The notes beneath the pieces are model-generated. The model was given only the letters and a program-made list of their open reading frames with translations. It searched no databases and was not told where the DNA came from. Below, piece by piece: positions 41,178-56,109 of a stretch of 64,000 nt of DNA. The stretch lies in NCBI RefSeq assembly GCF_009914755.1, contig NC_060938.1; one strand, given 5' to 3'. The stretch's first letter is position 1. Every line of letters begins with the position of its first letter. A program made the position numbers and the translations under genes. Source of the DNA: the human T2T-CHM13v2.0 reference genome, Homo sapiens.

Positions 41178-41675
41178 AAAATGCTGAGATTAAAATTTTT
41201 ATGCATGAATCTTTTTGTGTGTCTTTGATTCTTTCTTAAAGATAAACTCCCAGCAATAGTTCACTTGGCCAAAGGTGTTCAGCACACCCTCAGAAATGAT
41301 GGGTGTTGCCAGCCTCAGGCTCTGGCTGTCCTGTCCCTTTCCTGCCCTGTTTTCTCTCCTCCAGTCAGTCTCCCATGACAAGGGTTTGTGTTGAGCAAGC
41401 TCTAGGTTTTGGTCTTCCTGCTGGTTTGGGTGAAGCCATTTGTGGATGGGTGTTGCTCATGCAGACCTTGTAGTGCTGTCTCTCCTCTAATCTGCTCTCA
41501 GTATCTGTTTGGTAACAATGAGTGAGTGGGAGGCAGTCTTCTCTGCATATCAGATGAAAGCTTCACAGAGGGAAGATCTTTTCTTATCGATGTGGGCTAT
41601 GAGGAGGGCCCTGTGTGGCATCAGCTGCCTTCTTTATATCATGTATCTAAACCATGGTCTTCAACGAAAGAGAGC

Positions 41676-41845: not shown

Positions 41846-42038
41846 TCTTGCTTATAATTCAAAATGTTCTTAGTGCTTCTGAATATTACTAAAGATAAAT
41901 CAGAATTGGTATAGGGTTGATGATTAAGGCAAAGAAGGATTTGGTGTCTTTTCTTAAGCTGGAAATATGGATCCTGCCTTTCCAGGGAAAATCTCTTCTT
42001 TTTCCTCATTTTTTTTTCTTCATTAATTCCTCTCTATT

Positions 42039-42115: not shown

Positions 42116-42226
42116 CTTCCAAATCCTTGGGTGCTTGGGCTGGGAATCAGGTCACTATGTGCAGGGAGAAGAGAGCAGCAGAGAGGGGACACACACTCAC
42201 GACTAGAAGCTGTGTCTTCACTGAGG

Positions 42227-42232
42227 TTTATT
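42227..42232 (-). terminator. CMA1: CMA1 polyadenylation signal AATAAA
   Basis: tttatt on + strand, about 140 nt after the stop codon. Confidence 0.9.
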
Positions 42233-42373
42233 GAGAGTTCTGTGACCTGTAGGATACTTCTGGAGGCTTAGGGTTGTGGCTGAGGGACCAAGGGTAGACC
42301 AGAATGAGTGGCACACACTTTGCTGCTCAGGTCCAGTTCCAGCTTCCCTTTCAGGCTGGCTCAGGATCCAGGA

Positions 42374-42517
42374 TTAATTTGCCTGCAGGATCTGGTTGAT
42401 CCAGGGCCGGTAATGGGAGATTCGGGTGAAGACAGCAGGGGGCTTTGCATCCGACCGTCCATAGGATACGATGCCCTGGGCCACCCCAGCACACAGAAGA
42501 GGGCCCCCAGAGTCTCC
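42374..42517 (-). CDS. CMA1: CMA1 exon 5 coding part (catalytic Ser, stop)
   Basis: ctacag|GGA GAC TCT GGG GGC CCT ... GCA AAT TAA. Confidence 0.98.
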
Positions 42518-45093
42518 CTGTAGGGGGAGGAGAGAGAGAAGAAGGTGAGCCCGGGAAGTCCTCCACTCCTGTCTGCCAGCCAGCTTGGAGTCACAGTGAG
42601 ACCTAAAGTCAGACCCAGGAGGTGGAGCTCCTCACTTATACATCTAGTTCTGATGCCCCTTCTTCCTTTCTTGGGACCGTCATTCACATTCTCCACATCA
42701 CCCCATGCCCCCAGTGCAGTAGACTGGAATGGATGGTCAGAGGCTGTCTTGGACCACGGGAGGACAGCAATTCCTGTGATGCTCACCCTGTCACTGACTG
42801 ACAACCTTCTGACCCCATCTCCTTCTAAGAGCATTCTGGTCCCTGAACAGTGAGTTTTGGAGAGGAAACCTAGTTGGAGGATCACCTTAAATGCAGATTT
42901 TGTCTTCCTGGGATTGCCCACACACAGCTGAAGATTGTGGTCAAAGTCTCTGAAGTGGCTGCAGGCCTGGGGATCCATGAGTCTCAGCTTCACCTCTTGC
43001 AGAGTGTCTGAGCCCGGCTTCAACACACCTGTTCTTCCCCAGCCAGCCACCCGGCACATTCTCCCAGGTGGGACAAAGTTGAATTGTGATGGGAAGGGGA
43101 GTGTCCCCACAGCCAGGGTCAGGCTGGCTTTCTCCTTCAACTGTGAAGGGAATGAAGGACCGTCAGTCCTCGAAATGGGCTCTGGACAGTTGGAGGTGAT
43201 CAGGGAGGGACAGGGTGAGTAGCTTCATGTTATAGCCAAGTCCTAAGAAAAATTCAGGGCAATGAGGACCTGAAGGAGAAGCTTAGGAGAATGGGAAGTG
43301 GAAAGGGAGAAGAGAGGTGTTGTCACCTTTAGTAACATGATATCGTGGTGAAGAGTAGAAGTGTTATATTTTGGATGACGGAATTGCTTTATAACCTCAA
43401 GCTTCTGCCATGTGTCTTCTTCCTCTGTTATGTTATGGGCTCCAAGGGTGACTGTTATAGACCTGTTGTGAGGAAGAAGGAAGGAAAAGGAGCGACAGTG
43501 ATGGCTTGGGGTTTCTTCTGAGGTGAGCTCATTCTGAGAAAAGAGGACTAAACTCTGTCACTGGGTCGCCGGACTCTACCCATCTCCCTTTTCATGGGCC
43601 ACTTGTGGCATTTGAGGGCTCAGGCTTAACTCATGAAAGAGCTTTCTCAGGAAACAGACACAATTTCTACGACCCCTGGAATTGCTGGGGACTGAACAGG
43701 CCAGGGAGGACTCAGGGGACAGGGTTCACACTTCCTAATTCAGGGAACCCTGCATGAGGGCCAGCCCCTGAAGCAGGAGATATCAGTTAAACGGGAAAGT
43801 GGGGGTCTCATGTAGACCCTGTTCTCTGCCTCCCATAAAATGATGGGTTCAGGACCCTGAGAACTAGAGGCCAGTGTTCTTGAAAAGGCCATAGAGGAAG
43901 TGGCCCTGAGACTGGGTGGGGCCCTGAAAAGTGAGCCGTGTGTCTTGAGTTGGGTAGGGGTGAGGGGTGCTACTGCAACAAGAGGGACCTTGGACAGGAC
44001 CTCCTTTTCCTCCGAAGGGGAGCTTAGCTCACAGTGACTGAGGCTCAAGGAACTATTCAAACACAGACTAAAGTCTTTCAGCCCAAGTCTTCCCTCTCCT
44101 GAAAGTTGACAAGACCCAGGACCCCCTCTTCAGTCCCCAGTGCAGGTGTATTCCTGGATGCTACTCTGGTTGTTCATCTCCCATTTGGAGATAAATAGAC
44201 CCTGTTGTCTCACCTTCCTGCACAATGAGCAGCCGTCAGCACAAAGTTCCGTCTTATAAGGAAACCACCACAAAATTTTGAGGGACCGTTGGAAGTTACA
44301 ATTTCCAGGTAGGCCATGTAGGGGCGGGAATGTGGCTTGCATTCTGTGCCCCCGATGATCTCCCCTGGAACAGAGCACCCCAGGGTTTGAACACGGCCAT
44401 AGATACTCTCTCCAATGAATGGACAAATTGGGTTAAAGCTGAGCTAGGCTTCCCTGGAATCTCATTCTCACCCTGTGTTCCGCCCATCTTCCCTCTCCTG
44501 TCTCCTGTATTTCGTATCTTTCCCCACCCATAACCTCCCAGGTGAAATCTCATTCTTGCCTCTGCTCCATTCTGATGTTTTCATCTCAGACTTCTCCCAC
44601 TCCCACCTTGCCCTGGCCCACCCTCCTCTGTCTCTGTGTAGGACCCACTGTCCAGGTTCCTGTTTTAGATTTCTCCATAGCTCTTGAGCATGGTCACAGA
44701 GTGAGAAAGTCACAAAGTAATGGGTAGCCCTGATGCTCAGAAGATTAAGAGGACATGTCTGTTTTCCTGGGGATACCCCTTTTCCTTCCACTTGCTCTGG
44801 GCTTTTCTACAATTGAGGTGAAATTCCTTGTTCCTGGGGGCTGTCCTAGGCTGTAGAGAATGGCAGTGGGTGGGGGTGGGGGTGGGGTGGCACACATCCC
44901 AAGTGGAAATTTCCCTCTGGGACTCTTGAAGAGAGATCTTGGAACCCTGTTTAGGAGTCAGCTATTTTCAGACTAAACATCTTTGTTTCAGGAGCTGATA
45001 CTGCAGATTTCAGAGGGAAGAACCCTGATACTCACCAGCTTCAGCTCTGGAGCACAAGAGAAAGAGCAGCAGGGGGAGAGGAAGAAGCAGCAT
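42374..45093 (-). CDS. CMA1: Chymase 1 (mast cell alpha-chymase); join(45036..45093,44214..44364,43327..43462,42886..43140,42374..42517), 247 aa
   Basis: Spliced exons of 58+151+136+255+144 = 744 nt give [39 protein letters not shown]...LTAAHC...DIMLLKL...[47 protein letters not shown]. All introns are GT-AG and the triad H66/D110/S203 is present. The sequence matches human chymase as I recall it. Confidence 0.99.
42886..43140 (-). CDS. CMA1: CMA1 exon 4
   Basis: [38 protein letters not shown]...[13 protein letters not shown]|gtgat; seen in ORF 42361..43140. Confidence 0.98.
43327..43462 (-). CDS. CMA1: CMA1 exon 3 (catalytic Asp)
   Basis: caacag|G TCT ATA ACA GTC ACC CTT GGA GCC CAT ... 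GAT ATC ATG TTA CTA AAG|gtgac. Confidence 0.98.
44214..44364 (-). CDS. CMA1: CMA1 exon 2 (GE propeptide, IIGG N-terminus, catalytic His)
   Basis: ttccag|GG GAG ATC ATC GGG GGC ... GCT GCT CAT TGT GCA GGA AG|gtgag. Confidence 0.98.
45036..45093 (-). CDS. CMA1: CMA1 exon 1 coding part (signal peptide)
   Basis: ATG at 45093-45091; [19 protein letters not shown]+G, followed by phase-1 donor gtgagt. Confidence 0.98.
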
Positions 45094-45145
45094 CTTCCCA
45101 GAGAGGCTGCCTGAGCAAATGCTGGTTTTCCTTTCCAGTCTTGGG

Positions 45146-45255
45146 TTTTATAACTCCCAGAAGGCAAGAGAGGGGCAAGGCTGGTAACCACAGGAACTGC
45201 ATGGTCACGTTTTCTTCTCTCACTCTGAATTGGCTGTTTCTGATCAGAAGTTCCC
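45146..45255 (-). promoter_or_regulatory. CMA1: CMA1 proximal promoter: TATAAAA (45146-45152) and RUNX consensus TGTGGTT (45186-45192)
   Basis: TATA box about 53 nt upstream of the ATG; RUNX motif read directly. Confidence 0.85.
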
Positions 45256-46583
45256 CTAGAATCACCCAGTGTTTTTCTAGAAAGGAACTTGAGCCCTGAA
45301 CTCCCAAGTGCTGGCTTCTCAGATGTACCCTCAACTATGGTGACTTTTCTGGAGTTGGGGGCAGGAAATGGAGGGACCATGTTTTTCTTTCCCAATTAGG
45401 GCAGCTTGTGAAAGGCCCACTGAACGTTCAGTGCAAAGACTTTTATGGCTATGTTCCATAGTCAGAAATGCATATTGCAGAGTCCCAGTGCATGCACATA
45501 TGTATGTGTGAGTATGTAAGCACAAATTAAAGGTTTCAGGAAACAATCTTTATCTTAACCATGTGCAGTGTTTTCTGTTAGTTTCCATTCCACTCCACTC
45601 CACTCCATTCCACTACACGTCAAAACTTGAGCAACAACCCCATTTAAATGATAATTCCTTGTAATTTGAAAAACATTGACCTGGATCTCTCTCCTCCTCT
45701 GAACCACATGTTTTTGACAGAAGAGAGATCCAAGGAGGGTAGATGTGGGAAAAGAACAGACCCTAGGACAGAACTTTATGCAAAGAGCAATTGGGATTGG
45801 AATTAGCATTTTCTGAGAGTCTAGGCGTATCATATATTGTCACAACTCTTAGATATATTATTACTTTCACGGCAACCCTATCAATATGTATTACCATTAT
45901 GATCATTATCATGTCATGATAGTCAATTTTTTAAATCAGCTATCATAGCTTATGGTTCAGAAATAGATTTTCCTGATATCAAATCAAGGTCCCTTTCTGC
46001 TCTAGCACTAGAGAGAAATAGAGGAATAGAGTCCTGCCAATGTGCAGGGGAAGTAAAGATGTAGAAGGGTGTTTGCTCCAGAGAGGTTGGGGTTTCCTAC
46101 TGTTGCATTAAGAATCAAGCTTTCCACAACAACCTGGGGACACACCATTACTGTCACTTTACAATTGTAGAATTGATACTCAGACCCATTAACATGACAA
46201 AGATCACACACCTTATAATATCAGAAGTGGGTTTCAAGCACATAGCTTTTATTTTCCCTGGACTTACAGAAAGCAGTCCACATGGTGGACTGTCATTTCT
46301 CTTGGAGATTTATAAGGCATTTAGTTCAAAGACGGGGATGAGTAGTGTATAAGTGCCTTTCCCAAATCATCTCACTATGCCCTTGGTCTCAGGTTGGGCT
46401 TGTGACCAGAGTGATCCACTCCTTAGTATATATTGGCCAGGTCCTCTGTTGCTTTTAACTTAATTTCCCAAGTTCTACCTACAGCTCTAACTCTCTCTAG
46501 AATAAGACATTTAAACACATCCGTAATGTCTTTTCAAATCTGGTCTTCTTAAGTGTCCTTGTACCACTTTCTTCACTCTCTCG

Positions 46584-46766
46584 GGGGTTGCCAGAGAATA
46601 TTCAGAATGCCCAGTTAAATTTGTATTTCAGATGAACAACAAATCATTTTTTAGTTAAGTATGTCCAAATATTGAATGGGACACACTAATACTAAAAAAT
46701 TGTTGTTTATCTAAAATTTGAATTTAACTGGAATCCTGTATTTTTTATTTGCCAAAGTTGGCAACT
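46584..46766. mobile_element. MER53 (palindromic hAT MITE) in the CMA1 upstream region
   Basis: gggttgccag...ccagttaaatttg / aatttaactgg...ttggcaactc long inverted arms. Confidence 0.8.
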
Positions 46767-49075
46767 CTTCTCTGGGCATTTCACCATTAACAGAACAGAA
46801 GAGAATCCGGAGCTGGAGAACTCTTGTCTTGTGGTCTTACATCAGTTAGACCAAAAAATCAGAGGCTTAAACAAATCAAAGCTGTTTGCTTTCACTGATA
46901 TAATTAGAAATTGAGAGGCAGGTAGTCTGGGGCTAGTAAGACAGCTCCACAGCATCAAGATTCAGATCCACCAAGACTTAAGTTTTGCTTCACCTGCCTG
47001 GCTGAGGGTGAGGAAATGGAATAGGTATAGCCCCAGTCAGGGGACCAATTTCAGAAACGAGGACTGCACTATCTGCTCACATTTCCTTCTTTGCTTTGTC
47101 ATATGTATACCTGTGTATTTTAAGAGATTTCCTTTTTCTCTTTCTTCTTCCCCCTTTGGTTATTTTATATATAGCATGTTGGTAGTGAACTTTATGGTTT
47201 AGGGTACAGTTATCAAGTTGGGAGACTAGAGAATATCAAATTGAAAATGTGACCAAACTATTGTTGGAGCAGGTATCACCTAGAGACACAGTACTTGAAG
47301 TTAAAAGCAGTAACTGTTGAGACTGGGTTATTTCAGTTCTGCTGAGTCAAGTCTAATTTTCCTTTATATAAAAGATAGTAAAGATTATGTTCAGTGGGAT
47401 AATTTTTGTTCTTGGAAACTTTAAGTGTGGCAAAAGAATGAATGTTGATGTGGGGCAACCAAGTGATGGATTGTAGTGGACATTTTCCATTTATATGGCT
47501 CCTTAATGTCTCTGGAACACCCTTCCTGTATTAGAGGAATTCCCAATGATAACTTTGCCTTACTAAGGTAGAATCCACAAACTTCCATTCCCAGTTTCTC
47601 TTGCATTTAGGTCATGTGACTTAGACTCTGTTAATCAGATAAAGGGGTGTACAATTTGACTTAGAAGGGAGTAACATGAGGGAGCTATTATCATGTGGAA
47701 TTAATTCTTCTAGTGAGGGTGACTGGTAGAGGGGTCAGGGTTTGTGGAAATAATTGATGATTCAGATATCCAGTGCTGCCTAGAATGTTTGGGCCAAACA
47801 AGTGGTAGTAGGACCTTTGCTGCACAGTGTTATGGTGTATTTTGGACATTGCTTCTGGCTAGTTTGACTCTAGACATAATCCTACAGCATCTTGGGAAGC
47901 AGCTGTTGAGTATGTATAAGAAAGGACTTACTAACAATCTGTTGCTATAAAATAAATGTGTGATTAGTGGAGGTAAGTGATTTCTCATTGCGGCAGATAC
48001 TCAAGTAGAGGTTGAATCAAGTCTTGATTCACAGTTAGTAGGACAGAAAATTTGGGCCTGATGTAGAAGCACTGGCATTTAAATAATGGCAATGATTCCT
48101 TAGTAACTATAATGCAGAGGGATCATTCCTTCTCTGAGTTTCCGAACATTGTATTAACTGTGCTAGTATTCACTTTGACATTTAAGGCATGCAGTTTGCT
48201 CTGCAGTTAGATGGGGTGAGTTTGAATCTTGGTTCTGCCACTTAGCTATGTGTCTGAACTTAGGAAAAATTTTAAAGTTCTCAGCCTTAGTTACTGCATC
48301 CATAAAATATGAAGAATGATACAGTACAAGGATTTTTTTCAGAATTAAATATGATGCTCAATGTGAAATGCCACATGATTGGTTCTTAATAAACGTTGGT
48401 TTTATTCCTTTGTGTTTTACCTTGTGCTGCCATATCACCACTTGATGGATAATTGATAGATATATCCTCATTGGCTATAATTTTTTTGATGAAAGAATAA
48501 ATCTTATACTTCCTCTAAATTCTCCTAAACACATTACAGATTAACATCTGTTATGGAATTTGGTTATTTCATGCTTTGCATGTAACATCTTTTTTCTATT
48601 CATTCATGTGCTGCCAGGCTGTTTATTATTCTCTGAGTAATGACTGTGTCTTTCTTGATTGAGCATTTCTATGCAACTTGTTTTAACTCTCGAGTTGGCA
48701 GGTATAAAACACCTAGAAACTTTTGTTGCAGTCTCTTCTAAAGAACTCCTGTGGGTCAGGGACAGCTGATGGCATGGGCTCATACTGAGCAGTAGTGCAG
48801 TGGAGCAGACAGAGTACATCCTTCATGGCACTGGCAGATTTTCCTGAAGCAGGCTGGAGCTCACTCTGTGTTTGCCCTCGCAATAAGTCCTGCCTGTTTC
48901 TATAGTTTCTGAATGACCAAGTTTTTCTGAATTTAAGGTTTATGTTTAATAGCTGCTGGCTTACATTAAACATCTATAAAGCAATTTAAGAGAATTACTT
49001 TCAAATTGATTTATTTTACGATACTCTTGCCTTCACTCCTAACACAATAGCTCACTTTTGAATTACTGCACTCTG

Positions 49076-49215
49076 CACAATATTTCTGAGTGGACAGTGT
49101 ATCCAGGAGAATGAGATATGGAGAGATCCTTGGAGATTATTCCCAGTGTTGGGGCAGGAGGAAGATTTCTCAGCGTGTGTGTCCTTATTTCTTTTCCAGG
49201 CTCTTCAGCACAAAC
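49076..49215 (-). pseudogene. Relic exon 5 (very degenerate)
   Basis: tttttag|GTT TGT GCT GAA GAG CCT (eroded GDSGGP) ... ctccaaggatct...ATC TCA TTC TCC TGG ATA (PP..ISFSWI). The Trp codon is 110 nt from the acceptor versus 114 in CMA1. Confidence 0.35.
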
Positions 49216-49509
49216 CTAAAAACATTTTGCTTTTTTAAGGGGTTCTTCCTAAGATTTCTCTTTCCACTCACCATTTCTGCAATGGGCTAATATTAAAGTA
49301 GGGAGAGTCTCTGAGGGTGCCCTTTATCATAAGTTTGGGCAAAGCTCTTTATGTGGATGGTTTCTGCTGTAGTCTCTGAGATGCTACTGCTCCCATTATC
49401 ACTCTCAGCTTCACTCAGGCAGGCCTACTCCTTGGGTCATCATCTTCTGTAACACTGTAGCCATGATGATTTTATCTTTTCTGTGTGGGCTATGGGGGAG
49501 GTTGATAAG

Positions 49510-49782
49510 GCAACAACTATTCTTTCCATCCCAGGGGTCCACAAGATGCTTGTTTAATCTGTGGTTGGTGTCAGTGGTGGAGCTGGTGCTCACAGGCTCA
49601 GCCCTGATCCTCATCATCTTCACTTCTGGTTCCTGTGAGCCAAGCTGTTAGAGTATAGTTCCTGGATTGAAAGGAACTATACTCTAGTTGTATTCTAGAT
49701 GGTCCTGCAATGGCTTGATAGCTCCTTACTGGGATTACCATATTGTGGGATTTCTATATTGTGCTGGGGCCTTAAAGGGTGT
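49510..49782 (-). pseudogene. Relic exon 4 (degenerate)
   Basis: ag|+3 codons+AAG GCC (KA, 49773), CCC AGT AAG (PSK, 49733), ATC AAG CCA (IKP), GAA GTG AAG ATG (EVKM, 49626), TGT GAG CAC CAG CTC CAC CAC (CEHQLHH, cf. CESDLRHY), DPWDGKNS (49539, cf. DPEIKKTS). Confidence 0.45.
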
Positions 49783-49930
49783 CTCATTGGTCTAGTCATT
49801 CTTGGTTGCAAGGAGATTCCTTAGTCTCTTGAAGGGCAGATGCTGCCCAGGATGCAGGTATGGTTTTGGTAAGGCTGATGGGGTAGATAGTGTGAAAGGG
49901 CAAATTATGTGAGACTCATGAGGCAGGTGG

Positions 49931-50086
49931 TATCAACAGCATGTGTCCATGGCTACAGGGTAGAGCCAACCCTGCAGGGGTCGTTTAGGGATTTTTCAAT
50001 AGTGCTTCTTTCCAACCACATTTGGAAGCAAGGGCAGAGGGAGCAAATCAGGACAACGGACAGCTCCCAGCCCTTCACTTTTTTTT
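49931..50086 (-). pseudogene. Relic exon 3 (degenerate)
   Basis: ttcccag| + 16 nt + CTG GGA GCT (LGA; same 16-nt offset as CMA1 exon 3). ATC CCT AAA CGA CCC (IPKRP, cf. GZMB IPVKRP) at 49992-49978. GACACATGCTGTTG at 49947-49934 equals GACATCATGCTGTTG (DIMLL) minus one base. Confidence 0.55.
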
Positions 50087-50409
50087 CTGGGAAATGCCAG
50101 GTTTTTCAAAGAAAATGAGTTGGCCTCTAGGGAAGGTAAGGAGGATGGAAATGCAGGTCAAGAATGGCAAGATACAGGGGGAGTGGACATGGAGAGATGT
50201 ATTAATAAATTGCATATTGATTATGTATTAACTGGGATCCCTGTTAGGAAACTCCTCTCCCCCAACCTTTTTTCCCCCCTGAAACTTGAAGTTCTTTTTC
50301 AGAATTTCAAACATTCCCTTTAGTGATCTTTAATATTACCAAAGGTGGAGAAATCAATATTTCACTATCAGTTAATGACTGAAGTAAGGAAGTGGCACTG
50401 GCTGCTCAG

Positions 50410-50553
50410 GGAATGGGTCAGTGGGCAGTAGAAATGGCAGCCACACAAACAGGCCTTCAATGTGTGTTTTTAAGGGGACTTTTTGGGCATACCCCATCAC
50501 CTAAGTGCATCCCTAAAGTCTGGTCAGGAGCACAGGTCTTCTGTATGACCTGG
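50410..50553 (-). pseudogene. Relic exon 2 (degenerate)
   Basis: GGT CAT ACA GAA GAC CTG TGC TCC TGA CCA GAC reads GHTEDLCS*PD versus GHEAKPHSRPY. ACT GCC CAC TGA (TAH*, for AAHC) lies 97 nt after the Y-equivalent codon (93 in CMA1). It is followed after exactly 8 nt by ctgag, a mutated gtgag donor. Confidence 0.5.
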
Positions 50554-51040
50554 CTACAGAAAAAAATGGCTTCTCTCTGGTTATGGTCCATGTTAATTTT
50601 TTTAAAATTGAGAATCATAACATACATACATAAGAGTGAAAAAAATTTTTTCTTCAAATGAATAATTATAAATTAAACATTCATGGAATCATTAACCAGC
50701 TTGATTTGTCATTTCCTTTAGACATTTCATCATGTCCTTATCCTGCCCTCTTCAATATGAGAGAAGGGCCATGGATAAGAATTGGGGGCATTTTGAGCAA
50801 AGCAGGTTAAGGGAAACTTCCAAAGCCAGTTTCTGATTCTTTCTCCACCCTACTCTTCTTGTCCCTGGGACACTGTCATCAACTGTGGAAAGTATATGAC
50901 TCTTCTAGGTATAGCTCTCCCTTTGGAACATATGCAAAGATATCCTGCAGCATTATTTTAGGCTCTTCTCTGACCCAGGTTAATGATTTTGGAATAGGGG
51001 CTGAGGACTTACAGGACAGGAAGTTACACCCTAGACTCAC

Positions 51041-51095
51041 CAGATGTGGCTTCAGGAGGCAAGAGGAAGACCAGCAAAATGATCAGGGCCTGCAT
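51041..51095 (-). pseudogene. Relic exon 1: signal peptide MQALIILLVFLLPPEATS+G
   Basis: gggaaaATG CAG GCC CTG ATC ATT TTG CTG GTC TTC CTC TTG CCT CCT GAA GCC ACA TCT G|gtgagt. This is 18 codons + 1 nt, the exon-1 architecture of CTSG, GZMB and rodent Mcpt genes. Confidence 0.88.
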
Positions 51096-51158
51096 TTTCC
51101 CTGCGACATTGCCCATACTGACCATGGCTAGTTCTGTCACCCCTTCACTGGGCCCCGC

Positions 51159-51270
51159 TTTTATAGCCCTAGAAGTAGAAGAAAGGGGATGGCTTGAAGC
51201 CACAGAAACCACCTGATCTCATTTCTGTCTTTCATGCTGGCATGGTTATCTTCCTCATCAGAAATTCTCA
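51159..51270 (-). promoter_or_regulatory. Relic promoter homologous to the CMA1 promoter (TATAAAA 51165-51159; RUNX-like TGTGGCT; GAGGAAGATAA ETS/GATA at 51246-51256)
   Basis: tttctgtggcttcaagccatcccctttcttctacttctagggctataaaa versus CMA1 ttcctgtggttaccagccttgcccctctcttgccttctgggagttataaaa: 39 of 52 columns identical by manual alignment. Confidence 0.85.
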
Positions 51271-51427
51271 TGACTCTACTCTCTGCTCTGGGAGTGTAGA
51301 AGTTGTGGTGAGTTCTCAAGAGTCCTAGGATGAGGGATGCACACTTGTCACTCAGAAAAGCTCTCTAGAAGTAGGTAGTAGCATGCATGGAGGGGGGAGT
51401 TTTAGGTGCTGTAGCACCCATTCTAAG

Positions 51428-51647
51428 CAGGGATTAGGGAACTTTTCTGTCAATCACCAGGTAGGAAGTACTTTCAACTTTGAGAGCCAAATGGTCTCTG
51501 TGGCAACTATTCAACTCTGCTGTGTAACACAAAAGCAACCATAGACAATTTGTAAACCCTGGATGTGAACATGTTGCAGTAAAACTTCATTTACAAAGGG
51601 AAGTGGGAGGCTGATTTGGCCTGCAGACCATAGTTTGCCAGACCCTG
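51428..51647 (+). mobile_element. MER58A (hAT-Charlie MITE)
   Basis: caggg...ggtctctgtggcaactattcaactctgc...gatttggcctgcagaccatagtttgccagaccctg. Confidence 0.8.
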
Positions 51648-52859
51648 ATCTAGGTATCAGCCCTTCTTTCAATTCTAATAATCAGAAGAAAGGAATGTGG
51701 TGGTGAGAGGAGGAAGGAAAAAGGGAGAATTTATTTTTTCAAAATTTTTCTTTCTTTCTATATTTTTATTGAAACATAATTCACATACCATAAAATTACC
51801 CTTTGAAAATATACAATTCAGTGCCTTTAGCAAACTTACAAGGTTGTGCAACCATCAACACTATTTAATCTAGGACATTTTCATCACCCCATAAAGAAAC
51901 CTGTATTCATGAGTAGTCACTTCCATTGTCCACCTCCCCACAACCCCTGGCAACAAATAATCTACTTTGTCTCTATGTATTTTGCCTATTCTGGACATAA
52001 ATGGAATTATATAATATTTGGCTTATTATGTCTGGATTCTTTCACCAAAAATAAAGGGTGAATTTACAATGTGTTTGGCACTGCTAGGACTTTACATGTA
52101 TCTTCTCATTTAATCTTTATTAACAGTCTTTTGGGGTTAGTATTATTATACACAATTATGAAGCACTCAGTGGAAGTTCAGAATGTCACATAGCAGCACA
52201 GCCAAAATTTAATTTGTCTGGTTCTGAAACTCATACTTTTTCTATTCCACTAATTTGAGTAATAAGGGTTGTGGGAGGAAGAGTTAGTCCAATGAATGGA
52301 GAAAAAAATGGAATGTATAAAGGAGAATATTTGTGTTCTCTGGAGGGGTTGGGGTAACCCACTTGTGCATTGAGAGTCACACCTGGCTTGAGAATAAATT
52401 GATACCTGCAGCTGTCATTATTTGAAATTATCCTGGACTCTCATTACTTTATGTGCCACTGAGGAAGAATAAAATTGTTCTAAATTAAACAATAATGTGT
52501 CATTAATTATCAGGTTCATTTCTGTTGTGAAGAGGTTAAAATGAGAAATATTGTGCATCTTTTAACCTATGACACATGGTAGAGTTCAGGTGTGTGCTTT
52601 ATCTCATTCACCCTCAAATCAACCCTGAGAAATATTATTGTGTTTATTTTACAGATGAAGAAACTGAGTCTCAGATAATTTGAATCACTCGAAAAAACTT
52701 TGTAAGCTATAAACATAACTAGGTATCGAACTTATATCCAATTGCATGATCTTTCCTTACATCATCCTGCTGTCCTGGACTGTAGAAGCAGAGCAAAACC
52801 AACAACAAACCATTTCCCTCAATTTTATAAGGCACAATCCATATTATTATGATTTTCAA

Positions 52860-54322
<1,463 letters not shown>

Positions 54323-54324
54323 CA

Positions 54325-54510
54325 GGCGAGGCCTCAAGTAGCTGGGACTATAGGTGCGCACCACCACGCCTGGCTAATTTTTTGAACTTTTAGTAGAGAC
54401 TGGGATTTGCCATGTTGGTCAGGCTGGTCTTGAACTCCTGACCTCAAGTGATCTGCCCACCTCGGCTTCCCAAAGTGGTGGGATTACAGGAGTGAGCCAC
54501 TGCACCCGGC
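54325..54510 (-). mobile_element. Alu fragment (AluS-like)
   Basis: gtagctgggactatagg...gtgagccactgcacccggcc. Confidence 0.85.
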
Positions 54511-56109
54511 CCTTATTTTGCTTTTTTGCTTCCATTGCAGATTCATTGCAGATCCGAGCACAGTTGGGTTTATGTTGTTTCCTGCTCTGTCTTACCTCCT
54601 TTCACCAGTCTCCCCGTTTATTCAGTGTTCATTCTAAGCAGTCCTTAAATCATCCCTTTCCCATGGGTTTGGGTAGAGACCCTTAAATCTGGGATAGTTC
54701 TTTCGTTAAACCTTGTGATGCTGCCTGTCCCTCTATCAGCTCTCAGCATTGGCAAGGCCAGCAATGGAAAGTTCCCTGCATCTTAGAATCAAATCTATCA
54801 ATGGTGATCTCATATCTGGTGGGATTTAGAAGAAGTCTGTTATGTCACAAACTGTCCTTTTCACATGCTTACATGAAACTCATTCGATTTGTGGTTGTTG
54901 CCAGGAATGGAGGCAGCCAACTCCTGAGGCAGTGTGGCAGGAGTCAGAGGGCCAAGCCTCAAAGATTCTTTTATGCGCCCCCCCTTATGTGTTTTCAGTT
55001 AGAGTGAGTACTCCCTTAATTGAGGGACTACTCAGGACTTCTGAGTAGTCCTGGATTTAGCCCTCCAGGATCTGAAATCAATGTTGTCCCAGATAATGAT
55101 TCTGCCTTTCATTTGCTCTTTTTTCCTGTATTTCCTTATCTCTTAACACATACATCCAGGAAAAACTTTCTCCTTCCCCTAGAAGTTATGCACAACTGAC
55201 ACAGTTTTGAACATTTGGCTAGTTTATTGATGCTGCCATAGGGAAGTGCTCTAAGTATCAAGATCTCTTGTGAAAGACTGATTTTTCAGTCCCTGTAAGG
55301 GGAATGTCGTAAAGAGAAAGGAGCGGTGAATTTCTCAGGACAAATGTCCCTGATTAACAGCAAATATTACATTGTTGAGACTTAGGAAAGGGTACATCTT
55401 TTTCCTACAAAAGCCTTATTCACACCATGCATTTGGGAACGAGGTGAAGTAAGTATTAAATACGTAGTTAAGAGCTCTGGAATCAGACTGCATTGGAATC
55501 CTGGTAGCACCCTTTATCAGCTTTGTGACTTTGGGTGCATTTCTTTATCTTTCTTAGCTCCCCACTCCACATCTGTAAAATGGGCTTAATGATAGTGAGG
55601 ATTAGATATTTTTTGGGGAAAGCATCAGGCATAGTAAGTACTCAAAGTTAGTTATTAATATTGACATTATTAGCCCCCAAGATCACTAACCTCTTCCAAG
55701 AGTTTGTGAACCAGAATTGTCTTCTTTTAAGTTATTCCAGGACTCTAAAAGGCCAAATAAATAAAAAGAGGACCTCTCAGCACTTGGAACAGTCTTCCAC
55801 CTGCCTCAATCCTTATCAGAGGGATTCTGGGAGGCACCACTCTGTTCCCAGCCCCTACTGTGAGAAGCAGTGGTTCTGTGCCCTGGGGTTTCCCAGCCTT
55901 GTGAAAATGATAACATCCTTTGTGTGTTACGCTGGGGCAGTTAGTTGCATCCTCATTTTGTGCTGTGGGACCTCACGTGCCACTATTTCTGTGTATTCTT
56001 GCAGTTGCTCAGCTTCCCCTAATTTTTATAACCTTTTCTGTATGGCCTGGGTTCCTTGAGAACCACCTGATACATGACTGGCACTATCTCACCCAGCCTC
56101 AACCTTCTA

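What the first reader, a model, noticed from the sequence alone, without database searches (positions are those of the whole stretch)
49010..51270. Hidden five-exon fossil of a lost chymase-locus protease gene next to CMA1
Seen, on the minus strand about 4-6 kb upstream of CMA1, in order: (1) a TATA promoter alignable to CMA1's; (2) an intact 55-nt exon 1, MQALIILLVFLLPPEATS+G|gtgagt; (3) exon-2 remnant GHTEDLCS*PD...TAH*, then 8 nt and ctgag; (4) exon-3 remnant ag|16 nt-LGA...IPKRP...D(I)MLL; (5) exon-4 remnant KA...PSK..IKP...EVKM...CEHQLHH...DPWDGKNS; (6) exon-5 remnant ending ISFSWI; (7) AATAAA at 49015-49010. Implied introns are about 490, 323, 148 and 294 nt. Established: the human chymase locus is described as four genes (CMA1, CTSG, GZMH, GZMB). 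Rodent beta-chymases (Mcpt1/2/4/9, whose signal peptides begin MQALL) lie between Cma1 and Ctsg. Inference: this is a unitary pseudogene, possibly the primate-lineage remnant of a beta-chymase or another family branch. Some exon-3/4 motifs look more granzyme-B-like. I do not know of an annotation for it but cannot check.
Basis: partly seen in the sequence, partly recalled or inferred. Interest (0 to 1): 0.92.

Follow-up and report, generated by a model that had tools for sequence, protein, structure and literature searches.

The report
Beta-chymase gene stub upstream of CMA1

Summary
Only the 5' end of the claimed fossil is real. On the minus strand there is a TATA box (51165-51159), a 55-nt signal-peptide exon (51095-51041, ATG and GTGAGT donor intact), and about 120 nt of intron. 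Together they align to the CMA1 5' end (E=5e-13).

The exon peptide is beta-chymase type. Of the 30 best-matching N-termini among 195 proteins, 26 are beta-chymases. It scores 116 half-bits against a 60-sequence beta profile; the maximum of 200 shuffles was 46. Fused gene models from a bat and a rodent place beta-chymase directly upstream of alpha-chymase, as here. Mouse lemur and tree shrew still have the gene.

Exons 4 and 5 are borderline (6 and 3 of 1000). Region-level tests range from 0/300 to 19/200 with scoring parameters. The best patches are 33-46% identical to beta-chymases, against 77% for exon 1, which does not fit decay in place.

The most likely reading is a promoter-plus-exon-1 stub of a lost beta-chymase whose body was deleted. 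My paper searches found no prior description, and a 2021 review says primate chymase loci hold no pseudogene traces. Interest is modest.

The parts
51126..51267 (-). Relic promoter. The upstream region aligns to the CMA1 promoter; TATAAAA is at 51165-51159.
   Evidence: blastn aligns CMA1 gene-sense 871-1212 to window 51267-50918 (60.6% over 360 columns, E=5e-13). Five-way alignment A1. Motif coordinates.
51041..51125 (-). Relic exon 1. The 55-nt signal-peptide exon is 51095-51041 (MQALIILLVFLLPPEATS plus the first base of a split Gly codon, phase 1). In-frame upstream ATGs sit at 51116 (MGNVAGK...) and 51125.
   Evidence: tblastn: bat beta P0068 E=1.4e-8; hyena beta P0074 70% of 27 aa, E=1.8e-7. 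65 of 185 query proteins hit it at E<=1. Beta profile 116 half-bits, 0/200 shuffles reach it. 26 of the 30 best N-termini are beta-chymases.
50918..51040 (-). GTGAGT donor (51040-51035) and the first ~120 nt of intron 1, still alignable to CMA1 intron 1.
   Evidence: Read-through meets a stop after 4 codons (alignments, piece).
49516..49668 (-). Unproven exon-4-like patch (EVKmMRI-RAE/ACEHQLHH*HQPQI against beta [24 protein letters not shown], one frameshift and one stop), followed by DPWDGKNS.
   Evidence: In the per-interval tests 1/300 and 6/1000 random intervals reach it. Identity is 46% to hyena beta and 33% to lemur beta, counted by hand. No Pfam hit for the stop-free piece 49414-49647.
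49903..49949 (-). Unproven exon-4-like patch (WTHAVDTT/LPHESHII against LTHAVGTIS/LPTRSTFI), 235 nt upstream of the previous patch.
   Evidence: Seen only as a block of the chained alignment. Not tested on its own.
49097..49133 (-). Unproven exon-5-like patch (RISPYlI\SWIH against beta RISPY-V\PWIN). The same bases also read as a weak exon-2 match in two other frames.
   Evidence: As exon 5, 3/1000 random intervals reach it. As exon 2, 42/1000 do, tblastn gives E=0.005-0.03, and the HMM gives -1.3 bits, reached by 13/100 shuffles.
49010..49015 (-). AATAAA hexamer about 80 nt after the exon-5-like patch. It would be a polyadenylation signal only if that patch is real.
55145..55344 (-). Single-copy non-coding piece about 4 kb upstream of the relic. 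It is homologous to an 84-aa 'linker' in a horseshoe-bat gene model that joins cathepsin-G-like exons to beta-chymase exons 2-5. It serves as a synteny marker.
   Evidence: tblastn P0009 200-283, 46% over 85 aa with 3 stops, E=7e-14. P0009 N-terminal part is 63% identical to human CTSG and its C-terminal part 81% to hyena beta. Single copy in T2T.

Best explanation
This is the 5' stub of the human ortholog of the beta-chymase gene (named CMA2 or 'mast cell protease 4-like' elsewhere). That gene lies between cathepsin G and alpha-chymase in many placental mammals. What survives in human is the TATA promoter, the 55-nt signal-peptide exon with its start codon and GT donor, and the first ~120 nt of intron 1.

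The four exons that encode the protease domain are not recognisably present in this window or in the 130 kb that follow it, out past GZMB. The most likely cause is a deletion of the gene body in the lineage leading to humans, after the split from lemurs. The stub can encode no protease; unspliced, it would give only a signal peptide plus four residues. I take it to be inert DNA, perhaps with leftover promoter or enhancer activity.

Shown: the homology of promoter and exon 1, the beta-type identity of exon 1, the syntenic position, and the absence of clear exons 2-5. Inferred: orthology, deletion as the mechanism, timing, and inertness.
For: Promoter, exon 1 and the intron start align with CMA1 at E=5e-13. 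CTSG, GZMH and GZMB align over only 63-81 nt around exon 1 (A1).

The exon-1 peptide MGNVAGKMQALIILLVFLLPPEATSG scores 101 against Eptesicus beta (20/26 identical, my count). It scores 53 against human CTSG and 29 against human CMA1. The beta median is 54.5 against an alpha median of 27 (60 vs 71 proteins, Mann-Whitney p=3e-15). The profile score is 116 against a shuffle maximum of 46.

Fused gene models give the gene order. P0068 (bat) and P0001 (cotton rat) read beta then alpha; P0009 (bat) reads CTSG-like then beta. The human order is the same: CTSG, relic, CMA1, all on the minus strand.

The beta clade of 22 rows has SH-aLRT 99. It holds mouse lemur, tree shrew, armadillo, tamandua, rhino, hedgehog, bats, carnivores, lagomorphs and rat/mouse Mcpt1/2/4.

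Exons 2-5 are absent. tblastn of up to 185 proteins, including lemur P0122, finds nothing at E<=0.01 in the window outside CMA1, apart from exon 1, two non-protease stretches of mis-built gene models (the P0009 linker at 55 kb and the P0048 N-terminus at 45237-45338) and one hit reading E=0.005 only in the smaller search space, E=0.033 against the whole window. The next 130 kb show nothing outside CTSG, GZMH and GZMB apart from one 19-aa match to the N-terminus of a reindeer model.

Sensitivity control: the CMA1 gene randomly decayed by 30% substitutions plus 3% indels still scores 125 on average (minimum 74) with the hyena beta probe. The candidate scores 49, and the null is 37 +/- 4.7.

Akula et al. 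2015 (PMC4646688, passage) had proposed that beta-chymases arose at the base of placentals and were lost in primates.
Against: Weak colinear matches to exon 4 and exon 5 exist. In the per-interval tests 6/1000 and 3/1000 random intervals reach them. The chained beta-profile score is reached by 0/300 shuffles and 1/116 real tiles at intron penalty 15, by 2/300 and 2/116 at 20, and by 7/300 and 3/116 at 25. The alpha profile is mildly raised (7, 12 and 6 of 116). Some eroded body may therefore remain.

Against those matches: stricter parameters give 19/200 and 7/52. I tried several parameter sets. The chain is made of 8 short blocks. The patches are 33-46% identical, against 77% for exon 1.

No beta-chymase genomic DNA from another mammal was available, so orthology, the deletion and its breakpoints are not shown directly. 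The intact ATG, reading frame and donor of exon 1 could hint at continued use. By my rough, recalled estimate a 78-nt neutral stretch would stay intact about one time in five.

A weak match of 50392-50293 and 49530-49465 to the CMA1 3' flank (3/100 and 8/100 block shuffles) would fit a body deletion. It conflicts with the exon-4/5 reading, and neither is established.
Confidence: 0.65

Rival explanations
1. Eroded fossil in place. The whole gene body, or at least exons 4 and 5 with the poly(A) signal, is still at 49000-50900 but is broken by frameshifts, stops and small deletions, roughly.
For: Chain scores are 0/300 to 7/300 against shuffles and 1-3/116 against real tiles. The patches run in the order exon 4, exon 4, exon 5 and end about 80 nt before AATAAA. 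The span from the exon 1 donor to AATAAA is about 2.0 kb, against 2.8 kb in CMA1 (my arithmetic on the coordinates).
Against: Exons 2 and 3 are at chance (796 and 700/1000; 265 and 174/300). No TAAHC, DIMLL-type or GDSGGP match rises above noise. tblastn and the HMM find nothing. Stricter scoring gives 19/200. Five of six single-protein probes lie inside the null (72-96/100). The lemur probe, the closest relative, scores worse (36) than hyena (49) on exon 4. Patch identity is 33-46% against 77% in exon 1, yet neutral decay since the primate ancestor (about 0.1 changes per site, recalled figure) should leave all exons easy to find (decay control). The exon-5 bases read almost as well as exon 2 in other frames, which shows how easily such motifs arise.
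Confidence: 0.2
2. Partial duplicate. Only the promoter and first exon of a chymase-locus gene were ever copied here. It was never a whole gene in the primate lineage and is not the ortholog of beta-chymase.
For: Only the 5' end is demonstrably present.
Against: The peptide is far closer to beta-chymases of other orders (scores up to 101) than to any human paralogue (53, 51, 43, 29), so it is not a recent copy of a human gene. It sits where whole beta-chymase genes sit in bat and rodent. A primate, Microcebus, has the whole gene.
Confidence: 0.07
3. Still in use. The stub survives because it works, either as an alternative promoter and first exon that splices in phase to CMA1 exon 2, or as a mast-cell regulatory element of CMA1.
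For: TATA box, ATG, open frame and GTGAGT donor are intact. Exon 1 ends in phase 1 like CMA1 exon 1 (58 nt) and the 55-nt exon 1 of CTSG, GZMH and GZMB. It has the same strand as CMA1 and lies 6 kb upstream, inside the window's longest repeat-free stretch (42123-51701, 9.6 kb, while 35% of the window is masked).
Against: RefSeq RS_2025_08 lists only CMA1 transcripts that start at 45123. A search for a CMA1 alternative first exon or promoter listed nothing relevant by title or abstract (listing only). Intactness of 78 nt is not unlikely by chance.
Confidence: 0.05

Closest known systems
Beta-chymase genes (mouse Mcpt1/2/4/9 and Cma2, dog CMA2, cat MCP1, 'mast cell protease 4-like' of NCBI annotation)
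   Same: Signal-peptide exon of the same length and phase, with MQAL...LLPPEA; the same upstream ATG extension MG(S/N)(I/V)AGK; a chymase-type promoter; and a position just upstream of alpha-chymase on the same strand (PMC8537139 and PMC4646688 passages).
   Different: No recognisable exons 2-5, so no catalytic triad and no protease.
Lineage-specific chymase pseudogenes (guinea-pig beta-chymase, rabbit alpha-chymase, and the former dog CMA2 'pseudogene' with one frameshift in exon 4)
   Same: Loss of one of the two chymase genes in one lineage while the other carries on (PMC8537139 passage; PMC4646688 passage).
   Different: Those are described as whole genes with disabling mutations. The human relic is a stub.
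Human CMA1 (alpha-chymase), the neighbouring paralogue
   Same: Promoter, exon 1 and intron start align over 360 columns at 60.6% identity.
   Different: The CMA1 signal peptide is of another type (score 29 against up to 101 for beta). CMA1 is complete and annotated.

Membership tests
beta-chymase gene (ortholog relic) | The first-exon peptide groups with beta-chymases rather than with alpha-chymases, cathepsin G or granzymes | tested here: met
   26 of the 30 best of 195 N-termini are beta. Of the other 4, three are beta by sequence (a fusion, a short model, a fused model) and one is a donkey granzyme-like protein. Beta median 54.5 against alpha 27. Only 26 residues, so no tree was attempted.
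beta-chymase gene (ortholog relic) | Lies between cathepsin G and alpha-chymase, directly upstream of alpha-chymase, on the same strand | tested here: met
   Human order from RefSeq. Order in other species inferred from fused gene models P0068, P0001 and P0009 and from review text. No genomic DNA of other mammals was available.
beta-chymase gene (ortholog relic) | Five exons of about 55, 148, 136, 255 and 144+ nt | tested here: not met
   Exon 1 is 55 nt and phase 1. Exons 2-3 are at chance and exons 4-5 borderline.
peptidase S1 (Pfam PF00089, Trypsin) | Encodes the protease domain with the His/Asp/Ser triad motifs (TAAHC, DIMLL, GDSGGP as seen) | tested here: not met
No Pfam hit for three stop-free pieces at E<=10. 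The beta HMM finds only exon 1. The genome-wide PF00089 scan was swamped by other trypsin genes and showed no chr14 hit among the 150 rows listed of 158 matches.
unitary pseudogene / gene relic | Functional ortholog in other species, no functional copy in this genome, same locus | tested here: inconclusive
   Apparently whole beta-chymases are annotated in Microcebus, Tupaia and many other orders. No other beta-like remnant was found in the 194 kb of the human locus scanned. The rest of the genome was not specifically searched for a beta-chymase, and orthology was not shown by DNA alignment.
processed (retrocopied) pseudogene | Intronless copy of an mRNA, without the parent's promoter | tested here: not met
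   The homology includes the promoter and the start of intron 1, with a GT donor after exon 1.
transposable element | Repeated in the genome / masked as a repeat | tested here: not met
   No masked repeat of 100 nt or more in 42123-51701. The stretches 50900-51300, 50280-50410 and 49440-49660 each match only themselves in T2T (that search sees only close copies). RepeatMasker itself was not run.

The most novel reading that the evidence does not exclude
The beta-chymase promoter and signal-peptide exon outlived their own gene because they are still used: as a second, beta-type first exon that can splice in phase onto CMA1 exon 2, giving chymase a different signal peptide and different regulation, or as a mast-cell enhancer inside the 9.6-kb repeat-free CMA1 domain. 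That would explain why exon 1 is about 77% identical to bat beta-chymase while nothing else of the gene is clearly left.
Probability: 0.05. Interest if true: 0.6.

Novelty: new member of a known kind. Interest (0 to 1): 0.3.

Why it matters
[quoted passage not shown] The same group had proposed that beta-chymases are old and were lost in primates (PMC4646688, passage). A beta-type promoter and first exon at the expected place in the human genome is direct physical evidence for that loss.

Public annotation adds to this. A whole beta-chymase is annotated in mouse lemur, tree shrew and xenarthrans, and these fall in one well-supported clade. Beta-chymase therefore predates the placental radiation, and the loss falls on the line to humans after the split from lemurs. 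No tarsier, monkey or ape beta-chymase appeared in the named sources, though a blank there means little.

This bears on how mouse mast-cell protease work (Mcpt4, Mcpt1) maps onto the single human chymase. It is a modest correction to the literature, not a new kind of thing.

Tried and rejected
Human paralogue probes. tblastn of CMA1, CTSG, GZMH and GZMB and blastn of their gene loci detect only exon 1 and the promoter. Smith-Waterman of each paralogue exon 2-5 against 45200-51035 gave nothing. The best was CMA1 exon 3 at 48629-48555, reached by 2 of 60 query shuffles among 16 tests.

A genome-wide Pfam Trypsin scan was useless: 150 of 496 first-look candidates were scored, giving 158 matches of which 150 rows were listed, none on chr14.

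An exon-2 reading of 49153-49020 was rejected. The HMM gives -1.3 bits, reached by 13/100 shuffles. The profile score is reached by 42/1000 random intervals. DNA identity to CMA1 exon 2 is 50% over 96 columns in a forced alignment. The 0/300 was for a site I had picked afterwards as the best hit.

Chains found in control tiles (45300-47435 minus strand, 64.2; 12817 plus strand, 65.7) looked as good as the candidate's under the strict parameters and are clearly noise.

The lax first alignment ran in the linear regime and had no power.

Granzyme-like affinity: not seen.

Rfam: no family at gathering score in 45200-56000.

CMA1 3'-flank similarity is left as an untested lead.

Soft-masking in window.fa: there is none.

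Supplementary files of papers were not requested. The locus maps (figures) of the two Hellman-group papers are not held, so I could not see whether a remnant is drawn there. Gallwitz & Hellman 2006 is recalled only and was not seen.

Full report
What is there. On the minus strand the window reads, in order: TATAAAA (51165-51159); in-frame ATGs at 51125, 51116 and 51095; an open frame MGNVAGKMQALIILLVFLLPPEATS followed by a split Gly codon; and GTGAGT at 51040-51035. Counted from the third ATG the exon is 55 nt and ends in phase 1. That matches exon 1 of CTSG, GZMH and GZMB (55 nt); CMA1 has 58. RefSeq annotates nothing here except an MPRA 'silencer' fragment at 49968-50168. No repeat of 100 nt or more is masked between 42123 and 51701.

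The 5' end is real and of chymase type. blastn of the four human gene loci against 47500-53000 aligns the CMA1 promoter, exon 1 and the first part of intron 1 to 51267-50918 (60.6% over 360 columns, E=5e-13). CTSG, GZMH and GZMB align over only 81, 63 and 81 columns around exon 1 (alignment A1). The stretch is single copy in the genome at that tool's sensitivity.

The exon is of beta-chymase type. I collected relatives from named public sources with three protein searches, giving 191 proteins. tblastn of the first 120 against 45500-56000 gave as best hits to exon 1: P0068 (bat, E=1.4e-8), P0074 (hyena 'mast cell protease 4-like', 70% of 27 residues, E=1.8e-7), P0069 (panda), P0090 (naked mole-rat) and P0066 (beaver), all beta-chymase-like. 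I then scored the 26-residue peptide against the first 45 residues of all 195 proteins (191 plus 4 human). Of the best 30, 26 were beta-chymases, 3 were beta by sequence but had been set aside for length or fusion, and 1 was a donkey granzyme-like protein. Medians were 54.5 for beta (n=60), 27 for alpha (n=71) and 29 for other (n=64). Human CTSG, GZMB, GZMH and CMA1 scored 53, 51, 43 and 29, against 101 for Eptesicus beta. Against a position-specific matrix from 60 beta-chymases the exon scores 116 half-bits; 200 dinucleotide shuffles of 48900-51300 gave a mean of 29 and a maximum of 46.

The position is right. Three mis-joined gene models reveal gene order in other mammals. P0068 (Cnephaeus) and P0001 (Sigmodon) run beta-chymase then alpha-chymase. 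P0009 (Rhinolophus) runs cathepsin-G-like exons, an 84-residue linker, then beta-chymase exons 2-5. The human order is CTSG, relic, CMA1, all on the minus strand. The P0009 linker is itself homologous to window 55344-55145, about 4 kb upstream of the relic (E=7e-14; single copy).

Beta-chymase is old, and a primate still has it. A maximum-likelihood tree of 51 proteins (quick search, SH-aLRT only) puts 22 'mast cell protease 1/4-like' proteins in one clade with support 99. The clade holds mouse lemur, tree shrew, armadillo, tamandua, rhinoceros, hedgehog, two bats, four carnivores, rabbit, pika and nine rodents including rat Mcpt1/2 and mouse Mcpt1. The rows were chosen by me from the 191, and the rest were left out for size. 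A second lemur model (Prolemur, P0189) is beta-like but gappy. No tarsier, monkey or ape beta-chymase appeared in the lists. Those lists show the best 120 only and omit proteins without a named source, so this is weak evidence of absence.

Exons 2-5: similarity searches. tblastn with 4, 120 and 185 proteins, including the lemur protein, found no hit to exons 2-5 at E<=0.01 except one. Between 48900 and 51035 the only other cluster kept's filter (best E<=0.05, or at least 4 query proteins) was 49017-49166: best E=0.005 in the small search space, E=0.033 against the whole window, hit by 17 query proteins. Apart from that, the hits below E=0.01 outside CMA1 were exon 1 and two non-protease stretches of mis-built models, the P0009 linker and the P0048 N-terminus at 45237-45338. 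A 9-sequence beta HMM on six-frame translations with X at stops gave 9.5 bits for exon 1 and -1.3 bits for that same place. Among 100 shuffles, 0 reached 9.5 and 13 reached -1.3.

Exons 2-5: chained alignments. I ran a frameshift- and intron-tolerant alignment of single proteins to 48900-51035, with 100 shuffles each. Hyena beta gave 49 against 37 +/- 4.7 (3/100). For naked-mole-rat beta, CMA1, CTSG, GZMB and GZMH, 76, 83, 96, 72 and 76 of 100 shuffles reached the observed score. As a control, the CMA1 gene with 30% random substitutions and 3% indels still scored 125 on average (minimum 74) with the hyena probe. With 40% and 4% it scored 66 (minimum 42).

With ten single proteins and 300 random intervals, the observed score was reached by 265 (exon 2), 174 (exon 3), 1 (exon 4) and 43 (exon 5). 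With the 60-sequence beta profile and 1000 random intervals the figures were 796, 700, 6 and 3.

The exon-4 patch is 49626-49556 (EVKmMRI-RAE/ACEHQLHH*HQPQI). The exon-5 patch is 49130-49097 (RISPYlI\SWIH).

Exons 2-5: whole-region chains with the beta profile. Strict parameters gave 49.7, reached by 19/200 shuffles and 7/52 real tiles. Laxer parameters with intron penalty 15, 20 and 25 gave 126.9, 81.2 and 58.3. These were reached by 0, 2 and 7 of 300 shuffles and by 1, 2 and 3 of 116 real tiles. The alpha profile gave 7, 12 and 6 of 116.

Why I favour deletion over decay in place. Exon 1 is 20/26 identical to a bat beta-chymase signal peptide, a fast-evolving part of the protein. The best patches of the conserved protease domain are 46% identical to hyena and 33% to lemur, by my hand counts. 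If the gene was whole in the primate ancestor, as the lemur gene suggests, the human line has had roughly 0.1 neutral changes per site since (a recalled figure). At that level the control shows all four exons would be found easily. The rest of the locus, 130 kb out past GZMB, holds no stray protease exon. A weak colinear match of 50392-50293 and 49530-49465 to the CMA1 3' flank (34.0 and 31.1 bits, reached by 3 and 8 of 100 block shuffles) would fit a deletion that joined intron 1 to the 3' flank. It is unproven, and it conflicts with the exon-4/5 reading.

Literature. Five full-text searches for a human or primate chymase pseudogene or beta-chymase loss found no description. A sixth, for a CMA1 alternative first exon or promoter, listed nothing relevant (listing only). 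I read passages, not whole texts, of two papers. [quoted passage not shown] It also says beta-chymases were found outside rodents only in cat and an earlier dog assembly. [quoted passage not shown] Figures and supplements were not seen.

Verdict. This is a real and apparently undescribed relic, but a smaller one than claimed: the promoter, first exon and intron start of the lost human beta-chymase. Exons 2 and 3 as drawn are chance. Exons 4 and 5 are unproven. The finding is a new member of a known kind (a gene relic or unitary pseudogene fragment) and of modest interest.

Noticed in passing
window 55145-55344 (minus strand): Single-copy non-coding DNA. Its translation, with 3 stops, matches at 46% over 85 residues (E=7e-14) the spurious linker of a horseshoe-bat gene model that fuses cathepsin G and beta-chymase. 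So it is a stretch conserved between human and bat in the CTSG-chymase interval.
   Followed up: partly
window 42123-51701: The longest stretch of the window without a masked repeat of 100 nt or more (9.6 kb, while 35% of the window is masked). It covers CMA1 and the whole interval up to the relic, and may mark a constrained regulatory domain.
   Followed up: partly
window 49649-49663 / 49672-49686: Perfect 15-nt inverted repeat with an 8-nt loop, just upstream of the exon-4-like patch. No Rfam family matches it.
   Followed up: no
window 49968-50168: RefSeq functional element ('silencer', MPRA peak2123 fragment).
   Followed up: no
window 50293-50392 and 49465-49530 versus 41846-41937 and 41572-41640: Two weak, colinear DNA matches (64% over 100 and 69% over 70 columns) between the DNA downstream of the relic and the 3' flank of CMA1. 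They may be old paralogy of the duplication unit, or chance (reached by 3/100 and 8/100 block shuffles).
   Followed up: partly
L009:3609-3665 (chr14:18829609-18829665, plus strand, just past the 3' end of GZMB): Matches the first 19 residues of a reindeer 'unnamed protein product' model, P0062 (74%, E=9e-5). Probably conserved non-coding DNA drawn into a wrong gene model.
   Followed up: no
window 45237-45338 (minus strand, just upstream of the CMA1 start): Matches the N-terminus of a flying-fox 'LOW QUALITY' chymase model, P0048 (53% of 34 residues, E=0.001). The CMA1 promoter region is therefore conserved and was mis-annotated as coding in that species.
   Followed up: no
proteins P0122, P0129, P0135, P0152, P0126, P0127: NCBI/UniProt annotation already holds beta-chymase-clade proteins in mouse lemur, tree shrew, armadillo, tamandua, rhinoceros and hedgehog. 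This is a much wider spread than the 'rodents plus cat/dog' of the 2021 review. The Prolemur model P0189 looks broken and may be a second, independent decay.
   Followed up: partly
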